Shown: positions 1-19,227 of the stretch, piece after piece
Layout of the letters: every line of letters begins with the position of its first letter
Position numbering within the stretch: position 1 is the first letter of the stretch
Assembly (NCBI GenBank): GCA_016700015.1
Contig: CP064995.1
Span: forward strand, 360,001-392,000
Length of the DNA stretch: 32,000 nucleotides
Direction: 5' to 3'
Origin: Candidatus Saccharimonadota bacterium
GTDB taxonomy: Bacteria; Patescibacteriota; Saccharimonadia; Saccharimonadales; Saccharimonadaceae
Made by a program: the position numbers and the translations under genes
Notes under the pieces: generated by a model
The model's database searches: none
Told to the model about the DNA's origin: nothing
Seen by the model: only the letters and a program-made list of their open reading frames with translations

Positions 1-411
1 TTTCCATTACACCTTGACAATTAATTCACCCGATTTCTTCGCTGATCCATGAGGCACAGTGACGCAGAAATACCTCAGCCTTGCCGGTGGTATACGCGTC
101 ACCATCAAACCACAAAGCACTAGTGCTGGTGCTACCACCTACAGCCTCAGTAACCTGCATGGTGATACCATGGCAACAGTGAATGCCGATGGTACCCCAA
201 CCATCATCACCCCCACCGGCCCCTTCGGTGAACAACTAGCAAATCATACCGCACCCACCAACGCCACACCTGGCACCAGCAACGACTACCTCGGTACTCA
301 TGCTAAAGCCACCGAAACAGACTACCTGACTCGTCCTATCCAAATGGGAGCCAGAGTCTATATACCAGAACTAGGCAGGTTTATGCAGATGGACCCGGTG
401 GAGGGAGGAAC
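1..411 (+). repeat. RHS core-end repeat, copy 1 (partner 4121-4530)
   Basis: 68-411 matches 4187-4530 with only 3 mismatches visible (all near 378-396). Weaker homology continues back to position 1 / 4121. Confidence 0.9.
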
Positions 412-931
412 GCTGAATGATTATGTGTATGCACAGGATCCGGTGAATCAAACCGATACAACTGGTGAGTTCTTGGCAAATCTAATTCGGATTGCAGTCG
501 TCGCACTGTTTAAGCTTGTACCAAAGCAAGCAGTAAAGCAAACAGCGAAGAAAGCAACGAAGGCTGTCGTAAAACAAGAAGTAAAAACGATTGCGAAGCA
601 GGTTACAAGGCAAGAAATAAAGAATATTGCCAGCACAACACCAAAGCAAATGTCGTACAACGCGCAGAAAACAGTCGACTTCCTAAAGAATAATGACTTT
701 AAGTTTTCAGCGCAATTCACTAAAGGAGGCGGCCAGTGGTTAAACGATGGTCGAGCAGGCTCGCAGCTACTACCAAAAGAGTATCTTGGTAAGCCAATAA
801 ATTATACAGAGTGGGATGTCCAGCCAATGTTGCAAAATGGCTTGCGCGGCTCGGAGCGTATAATTAGAGGCAGCGATGGGTCAATATGGCACACCGCCGA
901 CCACTATAAGACGATAATAAGAATTGAGTGA
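59..931 (+). CDS. RHS-core C-terminal region fused to a barnase/RNase Sa (N1/T1) family ribonuclease toxin domain
   Basis: The RHS repeat-associated core signature is [44 protein letters not shown]. It is followed by a Lys-rich linker and then INYTEWDV...RGSERIIRG...WHTADHYKTIIRI, which matches the microbial guanyl-RNase signature (YxE[YW]xV, RGxxRI[IV], DHYx[TS]). The homologous frame continues upstream to the window edge but has an in-frame TGA at 50-52. The GTG at 59 is the first possible restart. Confidence 0.85.
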   Translation: MTQKYLSLAGGIRVTIKPQSTSAGATTYSLSNLHGDTMATVNADGTPTIITPTGPFGEQLANHTAPTNATPGTSNDYLGTHAKATETDYLTRPIQMGARVYIPELGRFMQMDPVEGGTLNDYVYAQDPVNQTDTTGEFLANLIRIAVVALFKLVPKQAVKQTAKKATKAVVKQEVKTIAKQVTRQEIKNIASTTPKQMSYNAQKTVDFLKNNDFKFSAQFTKGGGQWLNDGRAGSQLLPKEYLGKPINYTEWDVQPMLQNGLRGSERIIRGSDGSIWHTADHYKTIIRIE

Positions 932-941
932 GAGTATAAAA

Positions 942-1487
942 ATGAATATTGAGAATATGAAAATGCTTATTACTAAATCAGGAGCGGAACTTCAAACCGG
1001 CCTCACAGACGATGAAATAAATGAGATAGAGCGCGTTTTCGGTGCTCCCATGCCCGCCGACTTTAAAGAAATGCTTCACCACTTCCTACCGATTGGTAAT
1101 ATGTTCTACGACTGGCAAAAGCCACAGAACGTGCACGATGATTTTTATCGAGATTTAGAAAATGTGATACGTTTCGATATTTCTAATAATAACTTTTGGT
1201 GCCCACTATTTGGCGACAAACCGCAAAGTATAGATGAATCGGTTGCTAAGGCTATGGCAGCGATACACAATGCGCCACCGCTTTTTCCAATATACTCACA
1301 CCGATGCGCTGCACGTAGCGCATCTCGAGATAAGTCAGTTGTAATATCACTATACCAATTCACTGACTCGGCAGTATACGGAGTAGGTATAGAGGATTAT
1401 TTGATGCGCGAATTCGGCAATCAAGACAACGTATCAATGATTGAAAACGTACATGTACCGTTTTGGTCGGAGTGCTTAGAGCTTTAA
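942..1487 (+). CDS. SMI1/KNR4 (SUKH) family immunity protein
   Basis: The ATG lies 10 nt after the toxin stop (an alternative TTG at 924 overlaps it). LTDDEINEIERVFGAPMPADFKEMLHHFLP is the typical SUKH N-terminal motif. The gene sits immediately 3' of a toxin C-terminal (CT) domain. Confidence 0.7.
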   Translation: MNIENMKMLITKSGAELQTGLTDDEINEIERVFGAPMPADFKEMLHHFLPIGNMFYDWQKPQNVHDDFYRDLENVIRFDISNNNFWCPLFGDKPQSIDESVAKAMAAIHNAPPLFPIYSHRCAARSASRDKSVVISLYQFTDSAVYGVGIEDYLMREFGNQDNVSMIENVHVPFWSECLEL

Positions 1488-1637
1488 GATTGGGGCAGGT
1501 TACAGTAAAGGAGTTGAGGCCTGGTCTTGACATTCTGACACACGAAATTTCTGATTTCTTTCCAGGGTCAGGCCCCGACATAATGGAGGAGCCAGGGTTT
1601 ATCCCCGGAGATTCGGAAATAGTATATAGTATAGTTT

Positions 1638-2253
1638 ATGCCCAATAAAAATACAGTTAAGATTTTTGTCGCAAATACCTATTATCACGTATATAGCCGT
1701 GGTTGGAATCTGAATAAAATATTTCGAGATGAGAGTGATTACAAATACTTCGAATTACTATTGATGCGCGCGTTCGCCCCCGAGGCTGTCGCAGATGAAC
1801 GAGGGCGGCTATATCGCAACTTTTATAACGACGCGCGCCTTAATGCCTACTGTCTCATGGGAAACCATTTCCACCTCCTTGTACATATCTACGACGAGTC
1901 AGGACTGAGCAGGGCAATGAAAAGCATCCTCACTTCGTATTCCATGTATTTCAACAAAAAGTACAAACAACGCGGCAAGCCTGTTCGAGTCTACGTATAA
2001 AGCCGTACCCATCATCGAAGATGGCCAATTGATGCACATCACACGATATATCCACCTAAACCACCATCGTTTTCACGAATGGTCACACTCAAGCTACGCG
2101 GATTATGTAAATAATAGGTGTCGCAGCTGGATAGATATCCGACCACTCCTAGAACTATTTATTTCACCAGATCACTACAGGGATTTTGTCGATAATTATG
2201 AATCACTCCAGCGAGAACGCGATACGATAAAGCGAGAACTAGCAGATAGTTAA
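1638..2253 (+). pseudogene. IS200-like / REP-associated tyrosine (Y1, HUH) transposase, frameshifted
   Basis: YYHVYSRG, CLMGNHFHLLV (HUH) and MYFNKKYKQRG are in frame 0. The protein continues as LFESTYKAVPIIEDGQLMHITRYIHLN in the next frame from 1981. One extra base near 1980 splits it into ORFs 1638-2000 and 2029-2253. Confidence 0.75.
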
Positions 2254-2314
2254 TTGTATAATTTATAACATATAATCGTATCTTCCAGGGATAAACCCTT
2301 GAAGAAACGCTTGA

Positions 2315-2794
2315 AGCATTTCTGTCGCGGCCATGCTACAGCCAGTGACAAAAGACTCTGGTACCGCACTAAAGGTCGGTGAGGCTGTTGTGCGAACTAT
2401 GCAGATAATGGCCCCCATGGGCGCGACATCGAGAGGGAACACAAAGTCGACTAGCACAACAAAGGCGACGCAAACAACAAAGGTCTCAACACCGCAGACA
2501 CAAATTGCGATTAACAAAGCAGTTGGAGCTGCAGCAGAGACGCAAGTGGCAAAACAATTACAGACGGCCTATGGCAGTTCAAGCGTTTTATCATAACCGT
2601 CTTACTATACTTCGTTGGGCTATAGATATCCAGATTTCCAGGTGTATCCACAAAACGCACTACCGTTTAATGTTGAAGTAAAGAGTGGCAATGCTATGTA
2701 TGGTGGGTTGCAATACCAGAAGGATCGAGAGATATTCGACATGTATGGTATTGAGACTCAGGTCATATATGTTAATAATATAACCTGGAGATAA
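2315..2794 (+). pseudogene. Orphan toxin C-terminal cassette, PD-(D/E)xK nuclease-like, with in-frame TAA
   Basis: The frame is open from 2315. AAETQVAKQL...GYRYPDFQVY...FNVEVKSG gives an E...PD...ExK arrangement. TAA at 2594-2596 interrupts the same reading frame, which then runs on to TAA at 2792-2794. Confidence 0.55.
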
Positions 2795-2799
2795 TATAA

Positions 2800-3333
2800 G
2801 TGAAAAAGAAATACATAAGCGTTACCAAACTGAAGCTTGAGAAGCTATTTGGCAAGGGAAACATACAAACTGTGGGCCTAGACACGACTACAGAAAAGAG
2901 GAACGCTGTAAAAAAAAGACCTCAACCTTCATATAGTTACAAGCTTGATGATGTATCATGGCACCAGATGTCAGATCACTTGACGGGTCTTGAGGGAGTG
3001 CATATTGCTTTGATGCTCTGTGCTCTGGTCGAAAAAGATGCATACAAAAGAGAAGAAATAGTGCGGACGGTGTCTGAATGCAGTATGACTCCACTCGAGC
3101 AGCTGTCTATACTATCGGACAACAAGCTTTTTTCAAACGACTTTAAACAACCCTATCGACAGTGGTTGGAGAAGCACTATGACAGCCTATACCTACCATC
3201 ACTTGAAGACGGCACTCTACATCTTTCAAGGAGTCCCCGAGCTAGTGCACCTTACAATATATCTGACTCGTGGGAAAATGTTAATGTGGTAAAAAAATTT
3301 ATAACTAGACATCTGAATACTGACGCTTCCTGA
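2800..3333 (+). CDS. Hypothetical protein, candidate immunity protein for the adjacent nuclease cassette
   Basis: 177-aa ORF with a GTG start 5 nt after the cassette stop and ggag 9 nt upstream. I recognise no family. The call is positional only. Confidence 0.45.
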   Translation: MKKKYISVTKLKLEKLFGKGNIQTVGLDTTTEKRNAVKKRPQPSYSYKLDDVSWHQMSDHLTGLEGVHIALMLCALVEKDAYKREEIVRTVSECSMTPLEQLSILSDNKLFSNDFKQPYRQWLEKHYDSLYLPSLEDGTLHLSRSPRASAPYNISDSWENVNVVKKFITRHLNTDAS

Positions 3334-3470
3334 TGCGCATGAGCCCACCGATGATGAGAGCATAGCGCAGCGAGGTGGGTATCCGTGGAGAAATAAGCAG
3401 AACCTAATGATGCCGGGCCCATTGAATAAATATGCATAGGATGCAATATTAACAAGGAGAATATTGAACC

Positions 3471-3989
3471 ATGGTGACTGAAAACGATTTGCAAAAGATA
3501 AGAAGTAGCGGCCTCGGAGTGTATTGTACTAGTAGTGGATCTGAGTCGTATATCTACTATGAAGAGCGTAATCTAGGAAAGTTAGCCGATATGGGACGAG
3601 CGGAGTTGCTGGATGCGCAGGCGAAGGTGTTTCACCATTATCTCTGGGGCCCTGATGGTCATAGCGGCCTCTCTGCTCGCTTTAAAAACCATCTTTCTGG
3701 CGACTATGGTAAAGATATTTCTCTTGTGCTCTTGCGGTTCAATGTCAACCCTCTGCCAAATTGGCCGGCTATGAAAGATGTCGATAATTACCGACCAAGC
3801 GAAAAATCTATCGGTGCGTGGATTACTATCGATGACGAATACTTTTCGCTACCTGACGATGCTGCAAAAGAGCGATTTGTCCGCGATAGAATACTCGATA
3901 GGCTAGAGACAATAAGCAAGCGCTTTAAAGCACGTAAGCTAGATGCAGACATCGACCGTCTGATCGATGATGTCAAGAAGATATTCTAG
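3471..3989 (+). CDS. Hypothetical protein (possible orphan immunity gene)
   Basis: 172-aa ORF with a strong SD (aaggaga) upstream. No recognisable motif. Confidence 0.5.
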   Translation: MVTENDLQKIRSSGLGVYCTSSGSESYIYYEERNLGKLADMGRAELLDAQAKVFHHYLWGPDGHSGLSARFKNHLSGDYGKDISLVLLRFNVNPLPNWPAMKDVDNYRPSEKSIGAWITIDDEYFSLPDDAAKERFVRDRILDRLETISKRFKARKLDADIDRLIDDVKKIF

Positions 3990-4043
3990 GCTGTAAGAGC
4001 CAGAGCCTGAGACTTATGAAGTGACCCTGGGCATAAAGGCCTG

Positions 4044-4107
4044 GGTATAAAGGCCTGGCCCTGGAAAAGAATATTGGTATAAAGGCCTGGCCCTGGAAAA
4101 GAATATT
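4044..4107. repeat. Tandem direct repeat, 2 x 32 nt (ggtataaaggcctggccctggaaaagaatatt) plus a partial third copy at 4029-4043
   Basis: Read directly: 4044-4075 equals 4076-4107. The ataaaggcctgg core also occurs at 4032-4043. Confidence 0.9.
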
Positions 4108-4117
4108 TAGTACATAA

Positions 4118-4530
4118 TATTGCTGTCGTACCTTAACGACCCACTCCCCCGACTTCCTCACCAACCCCACGGGTACCATCACCCAAAAATACCTCAGCCT
4201 TGCCGGTGGTATACGCGTCACCATCAAACCACAAAGCACTAGTGCTGGTGCTACCACCTACAGCCTCAGTAACCTGCATGGTGATACCATGGCAACAGTG
4301 AATGCCGATGGTACCCCAACCATCATCACCCCCACCGGCCCCTTCGGTGAACAACTAGCAAATCATACCGCACCCACCAACGCCACACCTGGCACCAGCA
4401 ACGACTACCTCGGTACTCATGCTAAAGCCACCGAAACAGACTACCTGACTCGTCCTATCCAAATGGGAGCCAGAGTCTATATACCAGAACTAGGCAGATT
4501 CATGCAGATGGATCCGGTGGAGGGAGGAAC
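4118..4530 (+). pseudogene. Orphan RHS core-end fragment (repeat copy 2) lacking a toxin domain
   Basis: The frame is open from 4118 with no upstream start. It encodes the same ...TQKYLSLAGG...[26 protein letters not shown] as copy 1. After 4530 it reads out of frame through fusA-derived sequence. Confidence 0.8.
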
Positions 4531-4532
4531 AC

Positions 4533-4661
4533 ATGTTTGGCTATACTGGCGACATCCGCAGTATGAGCCAAGGCCGCGCTGCCAGCACCATGGAGCTCGC
4601 GCACTACGAAGAAGTCCCGCCAAACGTGGCGCAGGAAATCATCGAAAAGCGTTCGAAATAG
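4533..4661 (+). pseudogene. fusA: 3' remnant of elongation factor G gene (last 42 codons only)
   Basis: It translates to [42 protein letters not shown], the conserved extreme C-terminus of EF-G. No upstream EF-G sequence is present in any frame. Confidence 0.8.
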
Positions 4662-4682
4662 CTTGAGCCATGCGTACAAACT

Positions 4683-4710
4683 AATACACCCCGATCTCTC
4701 GGGGTGTATT
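4683..4710. terminator. Hairpin between convergent fusA remnant and 4729-5085 gene
   Basis: aatacacccc (4683-4692) pairs with ggggtgtatt (4701-4710) around an 8-nt loop. The stem sequence resembles the post-rpsJ terminator. Confidence 0.55.
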
Positions 4711-4728
4711 ACTCCTGAGAAATCGGGG

Positions 4729-5085
4729 CTAGAACGAGCCGGCGAAGCCGGCTTTGTCGAACATCATCTCTTCGATGATGCCAACTTCCTGCCAGTCAAA
4801 CGCGCCATCGCGGGCGCAGAGCCGCAGCGCTTCACCCACCCGCCACACGGCTTCCAGGACGGCGAAATAGTAAAAGTTGTTGCGCTCGTGATCCTTGACT
4901 GTTCTGACGACCGCCATGTAGTCGATGGCGTCCCAGCGCATTTCATAGGTAACGCGCGTGCCATCGCTCGCGAGGACGGTGAGAAACAACGAGTTTCCTG
5001 TTCCGGGGTGTGCACACATCTCCACCTGGCCGGTGCCAACACTCTGTATGAGGCTACGCGGTGTGACAGTGGTACGAGCAGACAT
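4729..5085 (-). CDS. Hypothetical protein (118 aa)
   Basis: An SD (aggaga) lies 5 nt upstream of the ATG on the minus strand. It is preferred over the overlapping + ORF 4663-5112. No family recognised. Confidence 0.55.
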
Positions 5086-5135
5086 GTTGTCTCCTATCTC
5101 TCTGCTTTATAATAAAATATCATTATATTATAATT

Positions 5136-5405
5136 TTGTCAACTAATACTATCACTTACAGCTCACTTAACTTGCATGTTGGCACAATACTAGCCGTCAA
5201 TCCCGATAGAACACTAACCGTTATCGTTCACCCTATCCAAATGGGAGCCAGAGTCTATATACCAGTACTGGGCAGATTCATGCAGATGGATCCAGTGGAG
5301 GGAGGAATAGCAAATAACTATGTGTATGTGACTGATCCTATAAACCAATTAGACCTGAATGGGAAGTGGAGTATAGGCGGACTGTTTAAGAGTGCTGTCT
5401 CGTAA
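5136..5405 (+). pseudogene. Degenerate RHS core-end remnant (repeat copy 3) with truncated C-terminus
   Basis: It encodes ...[47 protein letters not shown] followed by only 13 residues. There is an internal deletion relative to copies 1 and 2, and only a TTG start. Confidence 0.75.
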
Positions 5406-5409
5406 TTTA

Positions 5410-5859
5410 CTATTCGTCGATGAATACCTGTTTGTCGAGTGGTGGGTTTGTAAGCATCTGCTTTACGAACTTCGGTAGCACTTTGACATCAGATAGTTCG
5501 TCTAGTAAAAACCACCGACATTCTTCGACGGCACCGTTCTTGTCGTGGTCGATATGCGCTGCCATACCCTCTGGGGTTTGCCGGTTGTCGTCGGCGATAG
5601 AGGTGCGCCAGAATGTCTCGAGAGAAACCTTGTCTTTTTCGGGCTCGCGGAACTCCCGTACCTATAGTAGAGAATCAACATGAACGCTGTAGCCAGTTTC
5701 TTCGGTAACCTCACGTTTTACACTGTCTTTTACCGATTCGTCCTCAAACTCCCAGCCTCCCCCGGGTGGGTACCAAAAGTTTGCATCTTTGTTGCGGGCG
5801 AGCAGTATCTTATTGCTGTCTATAATGAGCGCGCGGATGATTACTCTTAGCTTAGTCAT
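5410..5859 (-). pseudogene. Nudix hydrolase with one in-frame TAG
   Basis: The Nudix box is exact: GGWEFEDESVKDSVKREVTEETGY (Gx5Ex7REUxEExGU). TAG at 5662-5664 is in frame, and the same frame continues for 83 more codons to TAG at 5410-5412. The total length (about 149 codons) is typical of Nudix proteins. Confidence 0.8.
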
Positions 5860-6111
5860 GCAGGCTATTGTAGCAAAATTGTGTATCACTATGAATATCG
5901 TTGATTCTGGTAGCGAAAGGTGGATATACCCTCTGAGCAAGTAGACAGTATTCGGTTTGATGAAAATCACGCCTGATGATATGATATACAAGATTGACGA
6001 GTCAGCTTTCTACACCAAGTTATGATGACTCCAAGGGTGGACTACAAATAGCCTAAAGGCGAGGTACGTAATGGTGTGCGACTTTGCAGAAGGTCTATTT
6101 AGTGTATCTCG

Positions 6112-6978
6112 ATGCAAGATAAGCACCAATCCTTATCAAAATACACAGTCCAACAATTTAACAAAGAATATCCAGACGACACAGCGTGTTTGCGTGCAGT
6201 GCTGAAAAATCGCTACGCCGAAACATGCCCTCGTTGCGGCACTATCGGGGTAAAATGGCATCCGATTACTGGACGCAAGGGATTCGTCTGTTCTGAATGC
6301 GACAGCCATGTTTATCCGCTCGCAGGAACGATATTCGAAAACTCAACCACAAGTCTGTGGAGCTGGTTTTATGTGATCTATCTATTCTCAGTCGCTCGAA
6401 ATGGCATATCGGCAAGAGAAGTAGAACGCCAACTTGGCGTCACTTATAAAACAGCATGGCGCATGTGCAGACAAATACGTTTACTCATGCAAGATAAAAC
6501 CCCAATGCTCGAAGGAACTGTTGAAGTAGATGAAACCTACATCGGTGGTAGACATCGCAGGAAGTATGGTTTTTCAAAAAAAGCACCCGTATTCGGAGCT
6601 ATTGAGAGAGGTGGATATGTTAAAACAGTCCATGTTAAAAGTACTGGAGCAAGAGTTCTCTTGCCGCAAATCTATTCAAAGGTGAAAACAAAAACAAGTG
6701 TTTATAGTGACGACTATCGTGCATATAAAAAGCTTGCGTGGTTTGGCTATGAGCACGCTTCCGTAAATCACTCTAGATGGCAATGGGCCGATGGTGATGT
6801 TTGCACTAACACAATTGAAGGATACTGGAGCCACCTTAAACGCTCCATTCGCGGAACTCACTGTTGGGTATCGAAAAAACACCTACAATTATATCTAGAC
6901 GAACATTCGTTTCGATACAATCACCGAAGCGAGGTTATTTTCCCGTACTTGATTCAACGGGTTTGGACGCTTTCTTGA
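6112..6978 (+). CDS. IS1595 family (ISXO2-like) DDE transposase
   Basis: The N-terminal zinc ribbon is CPRCG...CSEC, followed by an HTH-like segment. The DDE region has VEVDETYIGG, VYSDDYRAY and NTIEGYWSHLKR. Confidence 0.85.
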   Translation: MQDKHQSLSKYTVQQFNKEYPDDTACLRAVLKNRYAETCPRCGTIGVKWHPITGRKGFVCSECDSHVYPLAGTIFENSTTSLWSWFYVIYLFSVARNGISAREVERQLGVTYKTAWRMCRQIRLLMQDKTPMLEGTVEVDETYIGGRHRRKYGFSKKAPVFGAIERGGYVKTVHVKSTGARVLLPQIYSKVKTKTSVYSDDYRAYKKLAWFGYEHASVNHSRWQWADGDVCTNTIEGYWSHLKRSIRGTHCWVSKKHLQLYLDEHSFRYNHRSEVIFPYLIQRVWTLS

Positions 6979-7026
6979 TAAGTTTTTTGAATAATTCTTT
7001 GCTCATACGACCACTGTACATTGTCC

Positions 7027-7563
7027 TTATTTGGATGCAATATCGTTATATATAGCCTCTGCATCAAAATAATTTTTATTTTTATCTACACCACCTTTTG
7101 CTGACTTGATACGAATTAGCATGTCACCAAACCTACTACAAATATATGAGTAGCGGTTTAAGTCTTCTTCAGCGCATAAATCTTTGCTCATATCTTGAAT
7201 GGTTCCTGTATCAAATGCTTCGGGTGCTATGTATTCTTTGTACTTCTCTTGCATACAGGTCTTCTTAGTGTAGAAGTCTTTGTCGCCATCACCGTCTACG
7301 TCTTTATAGATCCCGCAAACAGATTCAATTGACGCCGATCTAGTGAAGCTCATATCCTTGGTGTCTACCGTTGTGACCCACTTATAGAAGTCCAAGTACT
7401 TGTGCTTTGGCTTTTTAGGCTTTTCTTTTACTTGAGATACTTTGGATTTATCTTCGATGGACGCATCCGATTTCGGTAATAAAACACTCGCCACTACCAA
7501 CATCGCTATAAGGTAAATGCATATTGCAAGACCTATAAAAAACCACTTCAGTATTTTCTTCAT
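7027..7563 (-). CDS. Membrane-anchored Cys-containing hypothetical protein (transposon cargo)
   Basis: 178-aa ORF with an N-terminal hydrophobic anchor (WFFIGLAICIYLIAMLVVASVLL) and an SD (gggggt) upstream. No family recognised. Confidence 0.6.
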   Translation of the reverse strand: MKKILKWFFIGLAICIYLIAMLVVASVLLPKSDASIEDKSKVSQVKEKPKKPKHKYLDFYKWVTTVDTKDMSFTRSASIESVCGIYKDVDGDGDKDFYTKKTCMQEKYKEYIAPEAFDTGTIQDMSKDLCAEEDLNRYSYICSRFGDMLIRIKSAKGGVDKNKNYFDAEAIYNDIASK

Positions 7564-7734
7564 AATATACCCCCCATGTTTGAAAATTTCTAATAAAAAA
7601 GGACAACCGTTGCAGGTTGTCTAGACTTTTCAAAGCAGGGTATACCCAACTTCTATCAACGGTTGCCCATTTCCGAAGTCGGGGTAATAAATAACCCTGC
7701 TGCATTGAAAAATCTAGACAGGGTTATTATAACA
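7564..7734 (-). promoter_or_regulatory. Candidate structured leader: extended -10 promoter, about 100-nt rod-like hairpin, then an intrinsic terminator upstream of the 7563 start
   Basis: All of these are read on the minus strand. tgttataat lies at 7734-7726. Three 7-bp helices pair 7713-7719/7619-7625, 7705-7711/7627-7633 and 7694-7700/7635-7641, with inner helices beyond them. The terminator hairpin gacaacc/ggttgtc (7600-7619) is followed by a T-run. Confidence 0.4.
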
Positions 7735-7851
7735 TACCCCTAGATATGATAGAATTGATTGAAGTTAGTATAGGCTCACGGTAAAGGTCTACCGACCTTG
7801 TTATTAAGTAATCGCTATAGTGCTTATGCTATAGTATTGATAGGTATACAT

Positions 7852-8298
7852 ATGAGTAAACATTCTATATATAATGTAGCCAGGTATATAGTAAGTAGCT
7901 ATATGGGTGATGATTTGACCTCCCTAAAGCTTCAAAAGCTTACTTATTATTGTCAGGCATGGTCATTGGCATGGGACGGGTCTCCTCTTTTTGATGAAGA
8001 TTTTCAAGCATGGTCAAATGGCCCTGTTTGTGTAGATCTGTATAAAAAACATGCGAAAACATTCGAAATAGCAAAAGACTTTCTTTCTGAAAGCGAGGTT
8101 GATAACTTTACTGATTCCCAGAAAGAGACAATGAACTCAGTCATCAACTACTACGGCCAGAAGAAGGCCTATGAGCTGAGTTCACTTACGCATAATGAGC
8201 TACCTTGGATAAAAGCTCGCGGAGACACACCCCAGGGCTACCCATCAAATACTATTATCGAAAAAGAGATTATGCAGGAATACTACGGTGGGCTATAG
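7852..8298 (+). CDS. Panacea / DUF4065 (SocA-like) domain protein, putative antitoxin
   Basis: LTSLKLQKLTYYCQAWSLAWDGSPLFDEDFQAWSNGPVCVDLY and ...LSSLTHNELPWIKAR match the DUF4065 signature. ATG 7852 is preferred over the upstream TTG at 7798. Confidence 0.75.
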   Translation: MSKHSIYNVARYIVSSYMGDDLTSLKLQKLTYYCQAWSLAWDGSPLFDEDFQAWSNGPVCVDLYKKHAKTFEIAKDFLSESEVDNFTDSQKETMNSVINYYGQKKAYELSSLTHNELPWIKARGDTPQGYPSNTIIEKEIMQEYYGGL

Positions 8299-8761
8299 GG
8301 GTAATGATAGATCACGTAAAACACCGAAATCACAAAACAACATAGCCTCAAAAATACCAAAGATAGCAAGCTTAAGCTATCTCGACAATACTGGATATGA
8401 TAAGAAAAACCCTTCGTGGAGATTCAGCATTTGTAACAATGATAATCACGAGTGGTCTCCTCATGGCACTAGCATAAAGGGTATGATATATACATATCTT
8501 ATCGCCAAGGAGAACCAGACTTGGGGAGAGATTAAAAAAGAAACGCACGATGACGGTAAAACGAAGAACCATTTCATAGATATTCAACGGATTGACCCAA
8601 ATGCACAAAAAATTCTTCAGGATAGGAATTTGATTGAAGATAGAATCTTCTCGCTGAGAATTGACAACAAAAAAAGATTGTTTGGTTACCTTAGAGATGA
8701 TGGAGTTTTCGACATCATTTGGTTTGATCCAAATCATTCGATTTGTAAAATGAAGAAATAA
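8288..8761 (+). CDS. Unrecognised 157-aa protein, candidate toxin partner of the Panacea antitoxin
   Basis: The GTG start overlaps the upstream gene by 11 nt. The N-terminus is basic and the C-terminal block is conserved-looking (RLFGYLRDDGVFDIIWFDPNHSIC). I can name no family. The stop lies 5 nt from the transposon right end. Confidence 0.5.
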   Translation: MGYRGNDRSRKTPKSQNNIASKIPKIASLSYLDNTGYDKKNPSWRFSICNNDNHEWSPHGTSIKGMIYTYLIAKENQTWGEIKKETHDDGKTKNHFIDIQRIDPNAQKILQDRNLIEDRIFSLRIDNKKRLFGYLRDDGVFDIIWFDPNHSICKMKK

Positions 8762-9028
8762 AAAATCTACTTGCTCAGAGGGTATATCCACCTAGCGAAA
8801 TGATTGACTAATTCAGAGTAGTATTATATAACAGAATAATAATCTGGGAGTACATATGCGAATTGCAGTGTTTAGTGACAGTATCAATATCCCCCCAAAG
8901 GAAAGTATCAATGTGCACACATATGATCTACTTTTGGCATTGTCACAGCACACAGACTGCACTCCAACTCTTGTTGTCTGCGATCGGGGTTGGCTAGATC
9001 GCAGCTTGCTTGCTCATTGTACTGACTG

Positions 9029-9577
9029 CTAAGACGATAGCCAGGTACCGAATTCATCCCACAGCACGGCCTCTTCCTCGCTGAAACCAACTGTTGAGTC
9101 CTCTGAGATACTTTTGCCGTCCTTGCGAAGAGAAAATATCTGAGTAATGAATGGGCCGCGCGGTTCACCAGCGGGCTCTGCTAAAATTGATCCGACCGTA
9201 TCATGAGTAAATACATGCTCGCCTTGATCATCGATATAGACGATTGTGTCACGGAGAATAACGGTCCGATCAGTTTTATGAGCCATCAAAGTCAAGATGT
9301 CATCCATTGTGAACCACTCGACCATATTTCGCATGTATGGTCCGGGAAACCCATTGAGGCTTGGGATAATCCATGATGCGTCATTGACAAATAGTGGCCT
9401 GCCGAGTTGCGCGTATGCGTCTCTTGCTTTTCGCACAGTGATAGCGACAGCGTCGTCTCCCTGTATTTCATCAAGCGACAGTTTTTGTTGCCGAACCTCA
9501 ATATCATACTTACCTAGAAATACTTTCGCATTCTCATATTTACCCATATTACCGGTGATGTACGTGATAGATTTCAT
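9029..9577 (-). CDS. Ham1/RdgB family non-canonical purine NTP pyrophosphatase
   Basis: ITGNMGKYENAKVFL...SLDEIQG...ARDAYAQLGRPLFVNDASWIIPSLNGFPGPYMR matches the ITPase family pattern. An SD (gaggag) lies upstream. Confidence 0.75.
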   Translation of the reverse strand: MKSITYITGNMGKYENAKVFLGKYDIEVRQQKLSLDEIQGDDAVAITVRKARDAYAQLGRPLFVNDASWIIPSLNGFPGPYMRNMVEWFTMDDILTLMAHKTDRTVILRDTIVYIDDQGEHVFTHDTVGSILAEPAGEPRGPFITQIFSLRKDGKSISEDSTVGFSEEEAVLWDEFGTWLSS

Positions 9578-11339: not shown

Positions 11340-12420
11340 GGACGTTGCAACATTTGCAGCAGGCACGATCCATAATCCATGTACTGTTTCGAAAACACCT
11401 CAAATGGTGCCGTCACGTCGGATGATGATCAAGTATCCGGCTCGACTAGAAGCGATGGCGCTGGATCCAGCAAAAATCGCAACCAATGATTCGCTTGTCT
11501 ACACTGCGGGACAAATCGACGTTTGCGTCGGCCTCTACAAAACTGTCACAGTTACGATAGACGAGACGAAACCGTCAGAGCTCATCATAACACCTACGAC
11601 AGGCCGCCGGACACTTGTCCTTCACGCTGCTCGCATGATGCAAAAGGCACTCGATATCCGCGGTCAGCTCACTGTTGACGTCAAAGACGAGGCAGGGCTG
11701 AGGCACTGTGGGCTTGGCTCGAGTAGTGGTACGATTGCTAGTGTGGCAAGCGCGATCAATGAACTGTACGGTCATCCAATCGCCGCACACGATTTGAGTC
11801 TCTATTGCGCGCAAAATCATGGTGAAGAGATCGATGGAAGTGATGATACGCTCACGGCTGTCCAATGTATCGGTGGATCGGTCGTATGTGGCAATTATGA
11901 GGGCGGTATTATCGTCCTTGCGGGCGAAGCAACACCGATAGCGCAGGTAAAAATTCCGACTGACTATAGTATCGTCATTGGTGTGCCAAATGATTTTGAT
12001 CATCCTGACTCGCTCGACTTGATGCAGCGTGAGGAGGACAACATGAAGGCGTTTATCACCACTGGCGAAGCGTACGGTCCACAAATTGCGTACCGCCTGG
12101 TTCATGATGTGCTTCCCGCGCTTGCGCTTGGAAATTTTGCTCCGTGCAAGTCGCTCGTATTCGACTATCGTTGGGATATGGGAAGCATACGAAATTGCTC
12201 ATTTGTCCTACCGCGCATCAATGATATTGCCGAAGCCCTGAGGCCTTTGCAGGAAGACTCAGCGGTCATAATGCTGTCACTTTCATCCGTCGGACCTGGA
12301 TTCTTTGCGATCACAACCGATCCAGTGCGAATCCGGACTCTATTTGAAGCGCAACATATGACAACAATTGAAACGGTCGTTCACAACGGCACCTATAAGA
12401 TAGGAGATATCGATGGTTAA
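11332..12420 (+). CDS. GHMP kinase superfamily protein, beta-ribofuranosylaminobenzene-5'-phosphate (beta-RFAP) synthase-like
   Basis: The GHMP motif is LRHCGLGSSSGTIASVASAINELYG. The N-terminal IKYPARLEAMALD and the later IGGSV...GGIIVLAG and SIVIGVPND blocks resemble the beta-RFAP synthase subfamily. The gene overlaps its upstream neighbour by 8 nt. The start is uncertain (in-frame Met codons at 11404, 11422 and 11425). Confidence 0.55.
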   Translation: MSKDVATFAAGTIHNPCTVSKTPQMVPSRRMMIKYPARLEAMALDPAKIATNDSLVYTAGQIDVCVGLYKTVTVTIDETKPSELIITPTTGRRTLVLHAARMMQKALDIRGQLTVDVKDEAGLRHCGLGSSSGTIASVASAINELYGHPIAAHDLSLYCAQNHGEEIDGSDDTLTAVQCIGGSVVCGNYEGGIIVLAGEATPIAQVKIPTDYSIVIGVPNDFDHPDSLDLMQREEDNMKAFITTGEAYGPQIAYRLVHDVLPALALGNFAPCKSLVFDYRWDMGSIRNCSFVLPRINDIAEALRPLQEDSAVIMLSLSSVGPGFFAITTDPVRIRTLFEAQHMTTIETVVHNGTYKIGDIDG

Positions 12421-18042: not shown

Positions 18043-19227
18043 ATGGCAGACTTCGACCGAAGCAAGCCCCACGTGAACGTCGGCACAATGGGCCACGTTG
18101 ACCACGGTAAAACAACTCTTACGGCAGCTATTACGAGCGTGCTGGCAAAGCGCCTTCCAAGCGCTACCAACAAACCAGTTGCCTATGACCAAATTGACAA
18201 TGCACCTGAAGAGAAGGCTCGTGGTATCACCATCGCTAGCTCTCACCAGGAATACGAGTCAGAGAAGCGTCACTACGCGCATGTTGACATGCCAGGTCAC
18301 GCCGACTATGTGAAGAACATGATCACTGGTGCCGCACAAATCGACGGCGCGATCCTTGTGGTTGCTGCCAATGACGGCCCATTACCACAGACCCGCGAGC
18401 ACGTATTGCTAGCTCACCAGGTCAATGTGCCAAAGATTGTTGTATTCCTCAACAAAATGGACCTAGCTGATCCAGAGCTTGTCGAGCTTGTTGAAATGGA
18501 CGTTCGCGAACTACTCACCAAGAACGGCTACGACGGCGACAACGCTCCGATTATCAAGGGTTCTGCTACCAAGGCCCTCGAAGGCGATTCTGCTTCCGAG
18601 GATGCAATCATGGAACTTGTCAAAGCTCTTGACGACTACATCGACGAGCCAAAGCGTGAACTCGACAAACCATTCCTCATGCCTATCGAGGACGTATTCT
18701 CGATCAAGGGCCGTGGTACAGTTGCGACTGGTCGTATTGAACAGGGTGTCATTAAGCTTAACGATGCAGTTGAAATTGTTGGTATTAAGCCAACCCAGAA
18801 CTCAGTTGTCACTGGTATCGAAGCTTTCAAAAAGAACCTCGACCAAGGCCAAGCTGGCGACAACGCTGGGTTGTTGCTCCGCGGTATTGAGCGCGAACAA
18901 ATCGAGCGCGGTCAGGTAGTGGTCAAGCCAGGTAGCCTGACACCACACACTGAATTTGACGCCGAAGTCTACATTTTGAAGAAGGAAGAAGGTGGCCGCC
19001 ACACACCATTCAGCAAGGGTTACAAGCCGCAGTTCTACTTCCGCACCACAGACGTGACGGGTGAAGTTGAACTGCCTGCTGACAAAGAAATGGTTATGCC
19101 AGGCGACACTGTTACCTTTAAGGTAAAACTGCTTGCTCCAATTGCTATGGAGCAGGGTCTCAACTTTGCTATCCGCGAAGGTGGTCGCACAGTTGGTGCT
19201 GGTGTCGTGACAAAGATCAATAAGTAG
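18043..19227 (+). CDS. tuf: Elongation factor Tu
   Basis: Full-length EF-Tu with [22 protein letters not shown] and a conserved C-terminal half. An SD (aggaga) lies upstream. Confidence 0.98.

What the first reader, a model, noticed from the sequence alone, without database searches (positions are those of the whole stretch)
5912..8799. IS1595-family transposon with 28-bp perfect TIRs, a 6-bp TSD and a three-gene cargo including a toxin-antitoxin-like pair
aggtggatataccctctgagcaagtaga (5918-5945) and its exact reverse complement (8766-8793) bound 2,876 bp. AGCGAA directly flanks both ends, so this looks like a recent transposition.

Inside are a one-ORF IS1595-type transposase, a membrane-anchored protein with a structured leader, and a Panacea-antitoxin gene with an unknown partner whose stop is 5 nt from the right TIR.

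IS1595 elements are normally about 1 kb and single-gene, so this is a cargo-carrying derivative mobilising a candidate TA/defence module. It sits in the divergent region between the Nudix gene and a truncated glycosyltransferase-like ORF.
Basis: seen in the sequence. Interest (0 to 1): 0.65.

Follow-up and report, generated by a model that had tools for sequence, protein, structure and literature searches.

The report
Cargo-carrying IS1595 insertion sequence with toxin-antitoxin pair
This is an intact jumping gene of a known cargo-carrying type (an IS1595-family "transporter IS") in a roughly 1-Mb Saccharibacteria-like genome; besides its transposase it carries a small membrane-protein gene behind a conserved, apparently undescribed regulatory RNA leader, and a Panacea-type toxin-antitoxin pair.

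Summary
The repeats are real, but they are better read as 27-bp perfect inverted repeats (5919-5945 / 8766-8792) flanked by an 8-bp target duplication, TAGCGAAA. Eight of nine related elements have an 8-bp duplication.

The transposase is a full-length IS1595-type enzyme with an intact zinc ribbon and D140/D200/E236/K243. Relatives with the same ends sit at other loci in Saccharibacteria metagenomes. They share the transposase and a conserved leader, but the gene behind the leader and the genes between the leader and the right end differ. This is therefore a transporter IS (tIS), a class already described for IS1595.

The Panacea antitoxin's 157-aa partner belongs to a family of at least 900 proteins. 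In three unrelated contexts a member lies directly downstream of a Panacea gene. It resembles RelE/YafQ-like (BECR) RNases and has an invariant His-Arg-His.

The "structured leader" is the most novel part. It is a roughly 127-nt 5' leader with strong covariation and competing terminator and antiterminator pairings. It has no Rfam match and also occurs outside IS elements, upstream of bPH_2 membrane-protein genes.

No empty site or second copy of this exact element was found.

The parts
5911..5918 (.). Left copy of the 8-bp target-site duplication, TAGCGAAA
   Evidence: The identical octamer is at 8793-8800. An 8-bp duplication is seen in 8 of 9 related elements.
5919..5945 (+). Left terminal inverted repeat (IRL), 27 bp: GGTGGATATACCCTCTGAGCAAGTAGA
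   Evidence: It is perfectly complementary to 8766-8792. The same ends are found in L009 and L011/L012.
5957..5985 (+). Promoter-like site just inside IRL (TTGATG-17-TATGAT, with TG), a candidate transposase promoter
   Evidence: This is a consensus scan only, and the number of such sites is not enriched over shuffles.
6112..6978 (+). Single-ORF IS1595-family DDE transposase, 288 aa, with an N-terminal zinc ribbon
   Evidence: Pfam DDE_Tnp_IS1595 1.5e-35, covering the full profile, and Zn_ribbon_IS1595. NCBIfam transpos_IS1595 scores 193.5 bits against a cut-off of 75. C39/C42/C60/C63, D140, D200, E236 and K243 are invariant in 22 homologues.
7027..7563 (-). Passenger gene 1: a 178-aa protein with an N-terminal membrane anchor, a Lys-rich linker and a C-terminal domain with four Cys; no known family
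   Evidence: Searches found no significant family. It is 52% identical to the L009 counterpart but not homologous to the proteins at the same position in L013, L011 and L023.
7595..7721 (-). Conserved structured 5' leader RNA of about 127 nt. It has helices P0 (GUCUAGA/UCUAGAC), P1 (CAGGG/CCCUG) and a variable P2 whose apical loop contains GGGCAACCGUUG. It ends in an intrinsic terminator (7602-7621, followed by U6).
   Evidence: Alignments A3, A4, A6. RNAalifold. Pair counts: 20 of 29 pairs have compensatory changes. Model R1 scores 133 bits here. The terminator scan finds the hairpin. No Rfam family matches.
7726..7734 (-). Extended -10 promoter element TGTTATAAT that drives the leader
   Evidence: TGYTAnnAT is conserved at this position in window, L009, L011, L013 and L023 and in most of the metagenome instances.
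7657..7668 (-). P2 apical-loop segment GGGCAACCGUUG, complementary to the 3' half of the terminator (7601-7612)
   Evidence: The 12-bp pairing is kept in 99.4% of cells, with one covarying pair (8 A-U to 5 G-C). L038 and L118 carry further compensatory changes.
7852..8298 (+). Passenger gene 2: Panacea-domain (SocA/DUF4065) antitoxin PanA, 148 aa
   Evidence: Pfam SocA_Panacea 6.6e-21. NCBIfam SocA_antitoxin 2.6e-11, which is below that model's cut-off. phrog_1281 1e-40.
8288..8761 (+). Passenger gene 3: 157-aa PanA partner, the candidate toxin (PanT), probably a BECR/RelE-YafQ-like RNase. It overlaps the PanA gene by 11 nt.
   Evidence: 923 homologues at E<=1e-3. Invariant residues are W44, W79, H95, R130, G133, W145 and H150. 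Residues 78-153 match the C-terminal part (profile positions 215-281 of 284) of the PADLOC NsnC model at 2.4e-5; that part of NsnC is described as a BECR domain with an H-R-H triad (PMC12065111). NCBIfam MAG6450_fam 5.8e-8. AF2 pLDDT 85. The top Foldseek hits are HigB, YoeB, YafQ and RelE but none is significant. Homologues lie directly downstream of Panacea genes in three unrelated contexts.
8766..8792 (-). Right terminal inverted repeat (IRR), 27 bp
8793..8800 (.). Right copy of the 8-bp target-site duplication, TAGCGAAA

Best explanation
Window 5919-8792 is an intact 2,874-bp transporter insertion sequence (tIS) of the IS1595 family. It inserted as one unit into an intergenic site of a roughly 1-Mb Saccharibacteria-like genome and duplicated 8 bp (TAGCGAAA).

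Shown by the data:
- Perfect 27-bp inverted repeats and an 8-bp duplication.
- A full-length zinc-ribbon DDE(K) transposase.
- Paralogous elements with the same ends at other loci, each with its own 8-bp duplication.
- A shared backbone (IRL, transposase, a convergent small gene and its leader) followed by a variable segment between the leader's promoter and IRR.

Inferred:
- The transposase binds the two repeats and moves everything between them by DDE chemistry.
- The PanA-PanT pair in the variable slot is a type II toxin-antitoxin module. Its toxin is a RelE/YafQ-like (BECR) RNase that uses His95, Arg130 and His150 and is neutralised by direct binding of the Panacea antitoxin. The pair would stabilise the element (addiction) and/or act in phage defence.
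- The convergent membrane-protein gene is controlled by transcription attenuation. The leader folds into P0-P1-P2, and its P2 apical loop competes with the terminator's 5' arm for the terminator's 3' arm. An unknown ligand or factor sets the outcome.
For: - Inverted repeats and duplication.
- Family assignment: Pfam and NCBIfam above cut-off; conserved Cys4, D, D, E, K; more than 7,600 homologues, the closest named ones being IS1595 transposases of Saccharimonas/Saccharimonadales; plasmid homologues annotated as IS1595 family.
- Independent relatives with cognate ends, in bp: L023 1,958; L027 2,060; L013 about 2,095; L034 2,082; L011 2,544; L009 2,945; L031 3,796; L041 4,908. Each carries different passengers.
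- L009 is 84% identical to the window from IRL to 7735, then carries different cargo up to IRR.
- G+C of the element is 37-45%, against about 50% in the flanks.
- PanA. Its partner is conserved next to Panacea genes. Similarity to BECR: with PMC12065111.
- Leader.
- Literature: tIS are known in the IS1595 family (PMC3129680; 10.1101/2021.05.26.445724). PanAT modules often lie near transposases, and toxin-antitoxin pairs can serve as transposon addiction modules (PMC8832971).
Against: - No empty site and no second insertion of this exact element was found: a 22-mer spanning the predicted empty site gave 0 hits in genome and metagenome collections, and every exact-protein look-up returned the same locus. 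Present-day mobility is therefore inferred.
- Only one copy lies in the 32-kb window.
- The toxin fold assignment rests on weak signals: Foldseek E>=0.1, hhalign against HigB and MqsR not significant, and no PDB sequence hit.
- No toxicity data exist.
- The way cargo enters the slot is unknown, and no internal IR remnant stands above chance.
- The ligand or factor for the leader is unknown.
Confidence: 0.8

Rival explanations
1. The mobile unit is only the roughly 1.8-2 kb backbone (transposase, membrane gene and leader). On this view the PanA-PanT pair entered an already resident copy, or the present right repeat is a solo end recruited from a neighbouring copy, so the 2.9-kb unit has never transposed as a whole.
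For: Minimal relatives L013 and L023 end right after the leader. Cargo differs between close relatives, window and L009, while the backbone is 84% identical. L011 and L012 share a left flank but have different right flanks, which suggests recombination between copies.
Against: The 8-bp duplication TAGCGAAA flanks the whole 2,874 bp. The two repeats are 27/27 identical. No significant internal right-end remnant lies between the leader and the toxin-antitoxin pair. L009, L031 and L041 likewise have duplications that enclose their cargo.
Confidence: 0.12
2. The PanA-partner pair is not an addiction-type toxin-antitoxin module. It is primarily an anti-phage (abortive-infection) module, or the partner is not a toxin at all.
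For: Partner homologues lie in prophage-like regions with integrase, holin, amidase and pRha genes. The only defence-database hit is to the effector domain of Menshen NsnC. The window PanA matches the phage family phrog_1281.
Against: The tight bicistronic arrangement with a Panacea antitoxin, conserved across contexts, is the defining signature of PanAT (PMC8832971). Defence and addiction roles do not exclude each other.
Confidence: 0.3
3. The conserved 127-nt RNA is not a leader for the downstream gene. It is instead a stand-alone small RNA of the IS, for example one that regulates transposition, or whose read-through gives antisense transcripts to the convergent transposase gene.
For: It has its own extended -10 element and terminator. 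Within IS copies it is more conserved (85-87% nt) than the transposase gene (70-76% nt), and the downstream ORFs are not homologous. Read-through would run antisense into the transposase gene.
Against: In all 15 instances it lies in the same orientation directly upstream of an ORF; in the 11 metagenome instances where the spacing was measured the ORF starts within about 45 nt of the U-tract. That includes at least 5 distinct non-IS loci upstream of bPH_2 genes with no transposase or IR nearby. This is the pattern of a cis-regulatory 5' UTR.
Confidence: 0.2
4. The element is an immobile relic: a fixed, single-copy domesticated insertion that only looks intact.
For: Every metagenomic contig that covers the site carries the insertion, and no other site was found. 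One variant, L006, has indels that break the genes.
Against: The inverted repeats are perfect, the duplication is intact, the transposase is full-length with all catalytic residues, and G+C is lower than in the flanks.
Confidence: 0.25

Closest known systems
Transporter IS (tIS) of the IS1595 family (Siguier, Gagnevin & Chandler 2009; the 'ISNwi1+' / 'ISPna2+' groups of ISfinder are recalled from memory)
   Same: One zinc-ribbon DDE transposase, short terminal inverted repeats, an 8-bp target duplication, and passenger genes unrelated to transposition inside the repeats. The size range is about 1.8-4.9 kb. The ends, GGnnnnTAT..., resemble what I recall for the ISNwi1 group.
   Different: The host lineage is Saccharibacteria. 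The passengers are a toxin-antitoxin pair and a gene behind a riboswitch-like leader. The semi-conserved backbone-plus-variable-slot organisation has not, to my knowledge, been described. Subgroup assignment could not be tested because ISfinder is not available here.
Toxin-antitoxin modules carried by Tn3-family transposons (Lima-Mendez et al. 2020, cited in PMC8832971)
   Same: A type II toxin-antitoxin pair inside a DDE transposon, presumed to stabilise the element.
   Different: The transposon family is different and far smaller, there is no resolvase or res site, and the antitoxin is of the Panacea type.
PanA-PanT (Panacea/DUF4065) toxin-antitoxin systems (Kurata et al. 2022, PMC8832971)
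   Same: A Panacea-domain antitoxin in a tight two-gene operon with a variable toxin. The paper notes frequent proximity to transposases.
   Different: The toxin family here has no Pfam model and I could not match it to a named PanT cluster. Here the pair lies demonstrably inside the inverted repeats of an IS.
BECR-fold RNase toxins: YafQ, RelE, HigB, YoeB, and the PB-BECR1 C-terminal domain of Menshen NsnC (PMC12065111)
   Same: The C-terminal roughly 75 residues match the C-terminal part of the NsnC profile. There is an invariant His-Arg-His, like the H-R-H triad reported for NsnC-C. The predicted helix plus beta-sheet, and the top Foldseek hits, all belong to this superfamily.
   Different: There is an extra conserved N-terminal region of about 75 aa (motifs PxWxF and TWxEI). 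All structural and profile matches fall below significance.
Terminator/antiterminator riboswitches and attenuators in bacterial 5' UTRs
   Same: A promoter-proximal structured RNA with covariation, an intrinsic terminator directly upstream of the RBS, and a conserved segment complementary to the terminator's 3' arm.
   Different: It matches none of the 4,227 Rfam 15 families. The ligand or factor is unknown. The associated genes are small membrane or bPH_2 proteins of Saccharibacteria.

Membership tests
IS1595 family insertion sequence | Transposase carries the IS1595-type DDE domain (Pfam PF12762 / NCBIfam NF033547) | tested here: met
   PF12762 1.5e-35 over profile positions 1-153 of 153. 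NF033547 scores 193.5 bits against a cut-off of 75.
IS1595 family insertion sequence | N-terminal zinc ribbon (CxxC...CxxC) | tested here: met
   PF12760 scores 22.2 bits, just below its cut-off of 25.4. C39, C42, C60 and C63 are invariant in 22 homologues.
IS1595 family insertion sequence | Catalytic D, D, E (with K/R seven residues after E) conserved | tested here: met
   D140, D200, E236 and K243 are invariant. Assigning these residues to catalysis is an inference from their motif context.
IS1595 family insertion sequence | Terminal inverted repeats and an 8-bp target duplication | tested here: met
   27-bp perfect inverted repeats and the 8-bp duplication TAGCGAAA. 8 of 9 relatives have an 8-bp duplication. 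That 8 bp is the family norm is from my own knowledge of ISfinder.
IS1595 family insertion sequence | Subgroup-specific end consensus (ISNwi1-like ggnnatTAT) | not testable with these tools
   The ends GGTGGATAT, GGCGACTAT and GGCGATTAT fit the consensus as I recall it, but no ISfinder copy was available to check.
Transporter IS (tIS) | Passenger genes unrelated to transposition lie between the inverted repeats of an otherwise IS-like element | tested here: met
   Three passenger ORFs lie within 5919-8792. The definition is taken from 10.1101/2021.05.26.445724 and PMC3129680.
PanA-PanT type II toxin-antitoxin system | Antitoxin carries the Panacea (DUF4065/SocA) domain | tested here: met
   PF13274 6.6e-21, 75.8 bits against a cut-off of 25.7.
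PanA-PanT type II toxin-antitoxin system | Conserved adjacent two-gene arrangement with the partner across unrelated genomes | tested here: met
   Partner homologues P0287, P0279 and P0283 each lie 0-23 nt from an upstream Panacea gene in different contexts.
PanA-PanT type II toxin-antitoxin system | Partner is toxic and is neutralised by PanA through direct binding | not testable with these tools
   This needs expression assays.
BECR (Barnase/EndoU/Colicin/RelE) RNase toxins | [quoted passage not shown] | tested here: inconclusive
   The AF2 model (pLDDT 85) has H104-112, then E119-124, E130-135 and E140-147, plus E95-98. The best Foldseek PDB hits are HigB, YoeB, YafQ and RelE, but E>=0.096 and TM<=0.33. 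hhalign is not significant.
BECR (Barnase/EndoU/Colicin/RelE) RNase toxins | Conserved catalytic triad (H-R-H in NsnC-C, H-D-H in YafQ) | tested here: met
   H95, R130 and H150 are invariant in 50 family members. The PADLOC NsnC match covers its C-terminal part, at 2.4e-5. The triad is described in PMC12065111. The residue-to-residue equivalence is inferred.
Riboswitch / transcription-attenuation leader | Conserved secondary structure supported by covariation | tested here: met
   12 of 37 pairs (A4) and 20 of 29 pairs (A6) have changes on both sides. 0 of 500 shuffles reach the observed scores, and slid controls give 36-48% pairing against 97.5-99.5% observed. A6 was fitted to the model, which favours it.
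Riboswitch / transcription-attenuation leader | 5'-UTR position with an expression platform (terminator and a competing pairing) | tested here: met
   Terminator 7602-7621 followed by U6. The ORF start is 20-45 nt downstream in the instances checked. The loop/3'-arm complementarity is maintained by covariation.
Riboswitch / transcription-attenuation leader | Specific ligand or factor binding | not testable with these tools
   This needs in-line probing or termination assays.
Any Rfam 15 family | Score at or above a family's gathering threshold | tested here: not met
   0 hits at gathering thresholds over the whole window. The best permissive hit is rimP at 22 bits against a threshold of 47.

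The most novel reading that the evidence does not exclude
The roughly 127-nt leader (7595-7721, minus strand) defines a previously undescribed cis-regulatory RNA class, a candidate riboswitch or attenuator, of Saccharibacteria. It controls small membrane and bPH_2 proteins. This IS1595 lineage has adopted it as a fixed expression platform behind which different passenger ORFs are swapped, while a second slot next to the right repeat exchanges toxin-antitoxin or defence cassettes. That would make these tIS small modular gene-cassette carriers in ultrasmall epibiotic bacteria.
Probability: 0.3. Interest if true: 0.65.

Novelty: new member of a known kind. Interest (0 to 1): 0.42.

Why it matters
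The element shows that reduced, roughly 1-Mb Saccharibacteria genomes host active-looking cargo-carrying IS elements that move toxin-antitoxin or defence modules and surface-protein genes. This bears on how these epibionts exchange accessory functions. It gives a clean example of a PanA-PanT pair physically inside an IS, which supports the reported link between PanAT modules and transposons. It adds a large, uncharacterised toxin family of more than 900 members, BECR-like with an H-R-H triad, to the Panacea partners. The conserved leader is a tractable candidate for a new regulatory RNA class in a phylum where almost no RNA regulation is known.

Tried and rejected
- Empty site: the 22-mer TTCTGGTAGCGAAATGATTGAC, spanning the predicted empty site, gave 0 hits in genome contigs and metagenome contigs.
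- Other copies: exact-protein look-ups of the transposase, the partner, its 99% variant and the neighbouring Ham1-like gene returned only the same insertion, or contigs that break at or within the element.
- Old right-end remnant between the leader and the toxin-antitoxin pair: the best local alignments scored 22.5-23, within the shuffle distribution (mean 21.6, maximum 28). The idea is neither supported nor excluded.
- Partner identification:
  - The word-index homology search found only the protein itself.
  - Single-sequence AF2 failed, with pLDDT 37.
  - A PDB profile search found nothing relevant.
  - Pfam on 50 family members gave only two marginal HigB-like hits.
  - Foldseek against PDB and BFVD gave no hit at E<=0.001.
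- Rfam: nothing at gathering thresholds or in permissive mode.
- The viral-contig hit L111 to the leader pattern is only a terminator look-alike.
- ISNwi1 subgroup table: the literature search for it failed, and the FEMS 2014 review is not held.
- L009's cargo is called Panacea-like plus PemK/MazF-like only tentatively, because all hits are weak (Pfam 0.0045 and 0.0051, phrog_1281 0.0063, BLASTP 3.9e-5).
- I considered that the 85-aa ORF 7448-7705 (minus strand) codes for protein through the leader. I rejected this because its frame relative to the downstream gene differs between the window and L009, while the RNA pairs covary.

Full report
**Observation**

The 28-mer AGGTGGATATACCCTCTGAGCAAGTAGA lies at 5918-5945 and its exact reverse complement at 8766-8793. 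The window holds no other copy at up to 3 mismatches, and none appeared in 100 shuffles. AGCGAA flanks both.

The parse needs one correction. The base before the left AGCGAA is T, and the outermost 'A...T' of the repeat can equally belong to the flank. Read that way, the element is GGTGG...CCACC (5919-8792, 2,874 bp) with 27-bp inverted repeats and an 8-bp duplication, TAGCGAAA (5911-5918 and 8793-8800).

Relative L009 decides between the two parses. Its outer bases (T...G) are not complementary, and its flanks share the octamer GTTGTGCT. The same GG-start parse gives 8-bp duplications in:
- L023 (GATGCGAA)
- L027 (CTTTTGGC)
- L034 (TTCTTCTA)
- L031 (CCGGTGGT)
- L041 (CCTTACGC)
- L013 (TTATTTTC)

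Only L011/L012 lack a duplication. From my knowledge of ISfinder, 8 bp is the IS1595 norm.

Both junctions of the window element recur in independent assemblies from several samples, so the insertion is not an assembly artefact.

**The transposase and the family**

ORF 6112-6978 (288 aa) matches Pfam DDE_Tnp_IS1595 over the whole profile (1.5e-35). It also matches the IS1595 zinc ribbon. NCBIfam transpos_IS1595 scores 193.5 bits against a cut-off of 75. In an alignment with 21 homologues of 43-97% identity, C39, C42, C60, C63, D140, D200, E236 and K243 are invariant. The zinc ribbon and the DDE(K) signature are therefore intact.

More than 7,600 homologues exist at E<=1e-20. The closest named ones are IS1595-family transposases of Candidatus Saccharimonas and Saccharimonadales. 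Species-representative genomes peak at 61% identity, again in Saccharimonadales. Window proteins are on record on a contig of 1,011,181 bp, which fits a Saccharibacteria-sized genome.

**Relatives elsewhere**

Transposases 97%, 81% and 72% identical lie in other genomic contexts, flanked by cognate ends.

| Locus | Ends | Size | Note |
|---|---|---|---|
| L009 | 3040-3066 / 5958-5984 | 2,945 bp | TSD GTTGTGCT |
| L011 / L012 | as L011 | 2,544 bp | no TSD |
| L013 | — | about 2,095 bp | TSD TTATTTTC |

More distant members have GGCGAYTATMCC... ends: L023 (1,958 bp), L027 (2,060), L034 (2,082), L031 (3,796) and L041 (4,908).

Every one of these carries at least one passenger:
- small membrane-anchored proteins
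- a His_Phos_1 phosphatase (L034)
- two- and three-gene cargos in L031 and L041; their largest passengers (299 and 278 aa) are 54% identical to each other, and from their sequences I would guess a replication-relaxation-type protein and, in L031, a PadR-like regulator and a hydrolase, but none of these was searched against a family library

The literature defines exactly this class. [quoted passage not shown] (transporter ISs)' were first described for the IS1595 family (PMC3129680, citing Siguier et al. [quoted passage not shown] The kind is therefore known, and this is a new member.

**Anatomy of the lineage**

The window and L009 are 84% identical from IRL to window position 7735. They then diverge completely until the inner edge of IRR. 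The shared part comprises the transposase, a convergent small ORF (52% identical at protein level) and a non-coding block at 7592-7735.

That block is more conserved than the coding sequence:

| Relative | Non-coding block, nt identity | Transposase gene, nt identity |
|---|---|---|
| L013 | 85% | 70% |
| L121 | 87% | 76% |

The ORFs behind the block are not homologous between the window/L009, L011/L121, L013 and L023. In the minimal elements L013 and L023 the block abuts IRR.

In the window, L009 and L011 an extra segment sits between the block and IRR:
- Window: the PanA-partner operon.
- L009: a tentatively Panacea-like gene plus a tentatively PemK/MazF-like gene on the other strand. All hits are weak.
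- L011: a 206-aa protein of unknown family.

The element thus has a semi-conserved backbone and a variable slot next to IRR. How cargo enters the slot is unknown, and I found no significant internal remnant of an older right end.

**The toxin-antitoxin pair**

ORF 7852-8298 is a Panacea/SocA-domain protein (Pfam 6.6e-21). Its partner, 8288-8761, overlaps it by 11 nt and ends 4 nt before IRR.

The word-index search found nothing for the partner. The exhaustive HMMER search found 923 relatives at E<=1e-3, mostly about 150 aa long. Fifty of them align with invariant W44, W79, H95, R130, G133, W145 and H150.

Three family members were looked up in their contigs. Each lies directly downstream of a Panacea gene, with overlaps or gaps of 0-23 nt, in unrelated settings: a prophage-like region with integrase, holin and amidase genes, a region with giant ORFs, and another locus. 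This conserved pairing is the genomic signature used to define PanA-PanT systems. That study also notes that PanATs often sit near transposases and may act as addiction modules (PMC8832971).

On what the toxin does:
- Residues 78-153 match the C-terminal part (profile positions 215-281 of 284) of the PADLOC NsnC model (2.4e-5).
[quoted passage not shown] YafQ is its nearest structure and it has an H-R-H triad (PMC12065111).
- The invariant H95, R130 and H150 fit this triad.
- With the family alignment, AF2 gives a confident model (pLDDT 85).
- The best PDB matches are HigB, YoeB, YafQ, RelE, GraT and ParE, but none is significant (E>=0.096).
- hhalign against single HigB and MqsR sequences is not significant.

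I therefore call it a probable BECR/RelE-like RNase toxin with a family-specific N-terminal extension, at about 0.5 confidence.

**The 'structured leader'**

Read on the minus strand, the conserved block contains, in order:
- an extended -10 element (TGTTATAAT, 7726-7734)
- a roughly 127-nt RNA (7721 down to 7595)
- an intrinsic terminator (GACAACC-UGCAAC-GGUUGUC followed by U6, 7621-7602)
- the RBS and start of the 178-aa gene

A pattern from its 3' end found 13 further loci in soil and rhizosphere metagenomes. Most of these are not in IS elements. No transposase hit was found in 10 of the 13, and no IR-like match at up to 6 mismatches was found next to any metagenome instance examined. There the RNA precedes 117-130-aa bPH_2 (bacterial PH domain) membrane proteins or other small membrane-anchored proteins.

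Thirteen distinct sequences give a nested structure:
- P0: GUCUAGA/UCUAGAC.
- P1: CAGGG/CCCUG.
- P2: all nine pairs have changes on both sides.

The P2 apical loop, GGGCAACCGUUG, is complementary to the terminator's loop and 3' arm, CAACGGUUGUCC. This 12-bp pairing is kept in 99.4% of cells. One pair covaries (8 A-U, 5 G-C), and the other changes are compatible with wobble pairing.

A covariance model found two distant members, L038 (51 bits) and L118 (32 bits). In these, P0, P2 and the loop/3'-arm pairing all carry compensatory changes. Twenty of 29 modelled pairs then show double changes, although this alignment was fitted to the model.

No Rfam 15 family matches. The one TM7 motif I found in the literature, lysM-TM7, should be covered by that library (PMC5737381; that it is in Rfam is from memory).

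The best reading is a transcription-attenuation or riboswitch-like leader. The P2 loop competes with the terminator's 5' arm for the 3' arm, and the effector is unknown. Its fixed position and orientation in front of an ORF in all instances argue for cis-regulation rather than a free-standing sRNA.

**Context**

The insertion lies between a Nudix gene that appears broken (a 65-aa N-terminal ORF at 5662-5859 and a separate 51-aa ORF at 5410-5565) and a 58-aa ORF followed by a Ham1-like gene. A promoter-like site for the Nudix gene remains between its start and IRL.

Upstream, at 59-5405, is the tail of a polymorphic-toxin (Rhs-like) array:
- an RNase toxin domain
- a SUKH_5 immunity-type gene
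- three copies of the junction encoding [21 protein letters not shown]
- a 42-aa EF-G C-terminal fragment

tuf and ribosomal protein genes lie downstream. The element's G+C is 37-45%, against about 50% around it.

**What is missing**

No empty site and no second insertion of this exact element was found. Transposition of the whole 2.9-kb unit is therefore inferred from the perfect inverted repeats, the enclosing duplication and the behaviour of its relatives. Toxicity, neutralisation, RNase activity and leader function are all untested.

**Verdict**

However, it describes a new member of an already defined class, the IS1595 transporter IS. The corrected parameters are 27-bp inverted repeats and an 8-bp duplication. 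The added value lies in three things: the modular organisation of this Saccharibacteria lineage, a large PanA-associated BECR-like toxin family, and an apparently undescribed leader RNA motif.

Noticed in passing
window 7595-7721 (- strand); also L098, L099, L100, L101, L103, L104, L105, L109, L110, L038:7039-7166, L118:1726-1863: The leader of the passenger membrane-protein gene belongs to a conserved RNA motif that is also found outside IS elements, upstream of bPH_2 and other small membrane-protein genes. It has strong covariation and a terminator/antiterminator arrangement, and no Rfam match.
   Followed up: partly
L013:5801-5876, L023:2648-2723, L027: about 2330-2400: Related IS1595 elements carry a tRNA-like gene between IRL and the transposase gene. 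The acceptor, D and T arms are nearly identical and end in ACCA, but the anticodon stem-loops differ and are odd (ARAGORN calls Ser-GCT with a short variable arm, and an undetermined anticodon). L027 has only a 5' fragment. The window element lacks this gene.
   Followed up: no
window 59-5405: The tail of a polymorphic-toxin (Rhs-like) array. It has a C-terminal RNase toxin domain (PF00545, ORF 59-931), a SUKH_5 immunity-like gene (924-1487), and three repeats of the core/toxin junction at 335-431, 4454-4529 and 5228-5307, which suggests orphan toxin cassettes.
   Followed up: partly
window 4533-4661: A 42-aa ORF matches the C-terminus of EF-G (EFG_C). It lies directly after, and out of frame with, an Rhs-type junction. 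tuf is 13 kb downstream at 18043-19227. The str-operon region may have been invaded by an island of toxin cassettes, the IS and other accessory genes.
   Followed up: no
window 5410-5859 (- strand): The Nudix gene left of the insertion appears broken. A 65-aa ORF covers only profile positions 2-61 of 134, and a separate 51-aa ORF lies downstream. It is probably a pseudogene or has a frameshift.
   Followed up: no
L011 and L012: The same 2.5-kb relative has an identical left flank but different right flanks in two contigs, and no target duplication. This suggests recombination between copies, or assembly across a multi-copy element.
   Followed up: no
L120:8609-11853 (= L118): A distant locus repeats the window's arrangement. 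A DUF4352 membrane protein sits behind a divergent copy of the leader, followed by PanA (55% identical) and a partner homologue (35%), two further genes, and a solo IS1595-type end (GGCGACTATATCC..., 11827-11853). No transposase lies on the expected side. A second Panacea pair and a 34%-identical IS1595 transposase lie just beyond.
   Followed up: partly
L013:7771-8322 and window 9029-9577: In both the window and L013, the IS lies next to a Ham1-like (ITPase) gene. The proteins are only 32% identical, and the target duplications and left neighbours differ. This may be coincidence or a regional target preference.
   Followed up: partly
window 7779-7834: Upstream of the PanA gene there is a short hairpin (CGGTAAAGGTCTACCG) and a direct repeat, CTATAGT N7 CTATAGT. 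These are candidate promoter or operator elements for autoregulation of the toxin-antitoxin operon.
   Followed up: no
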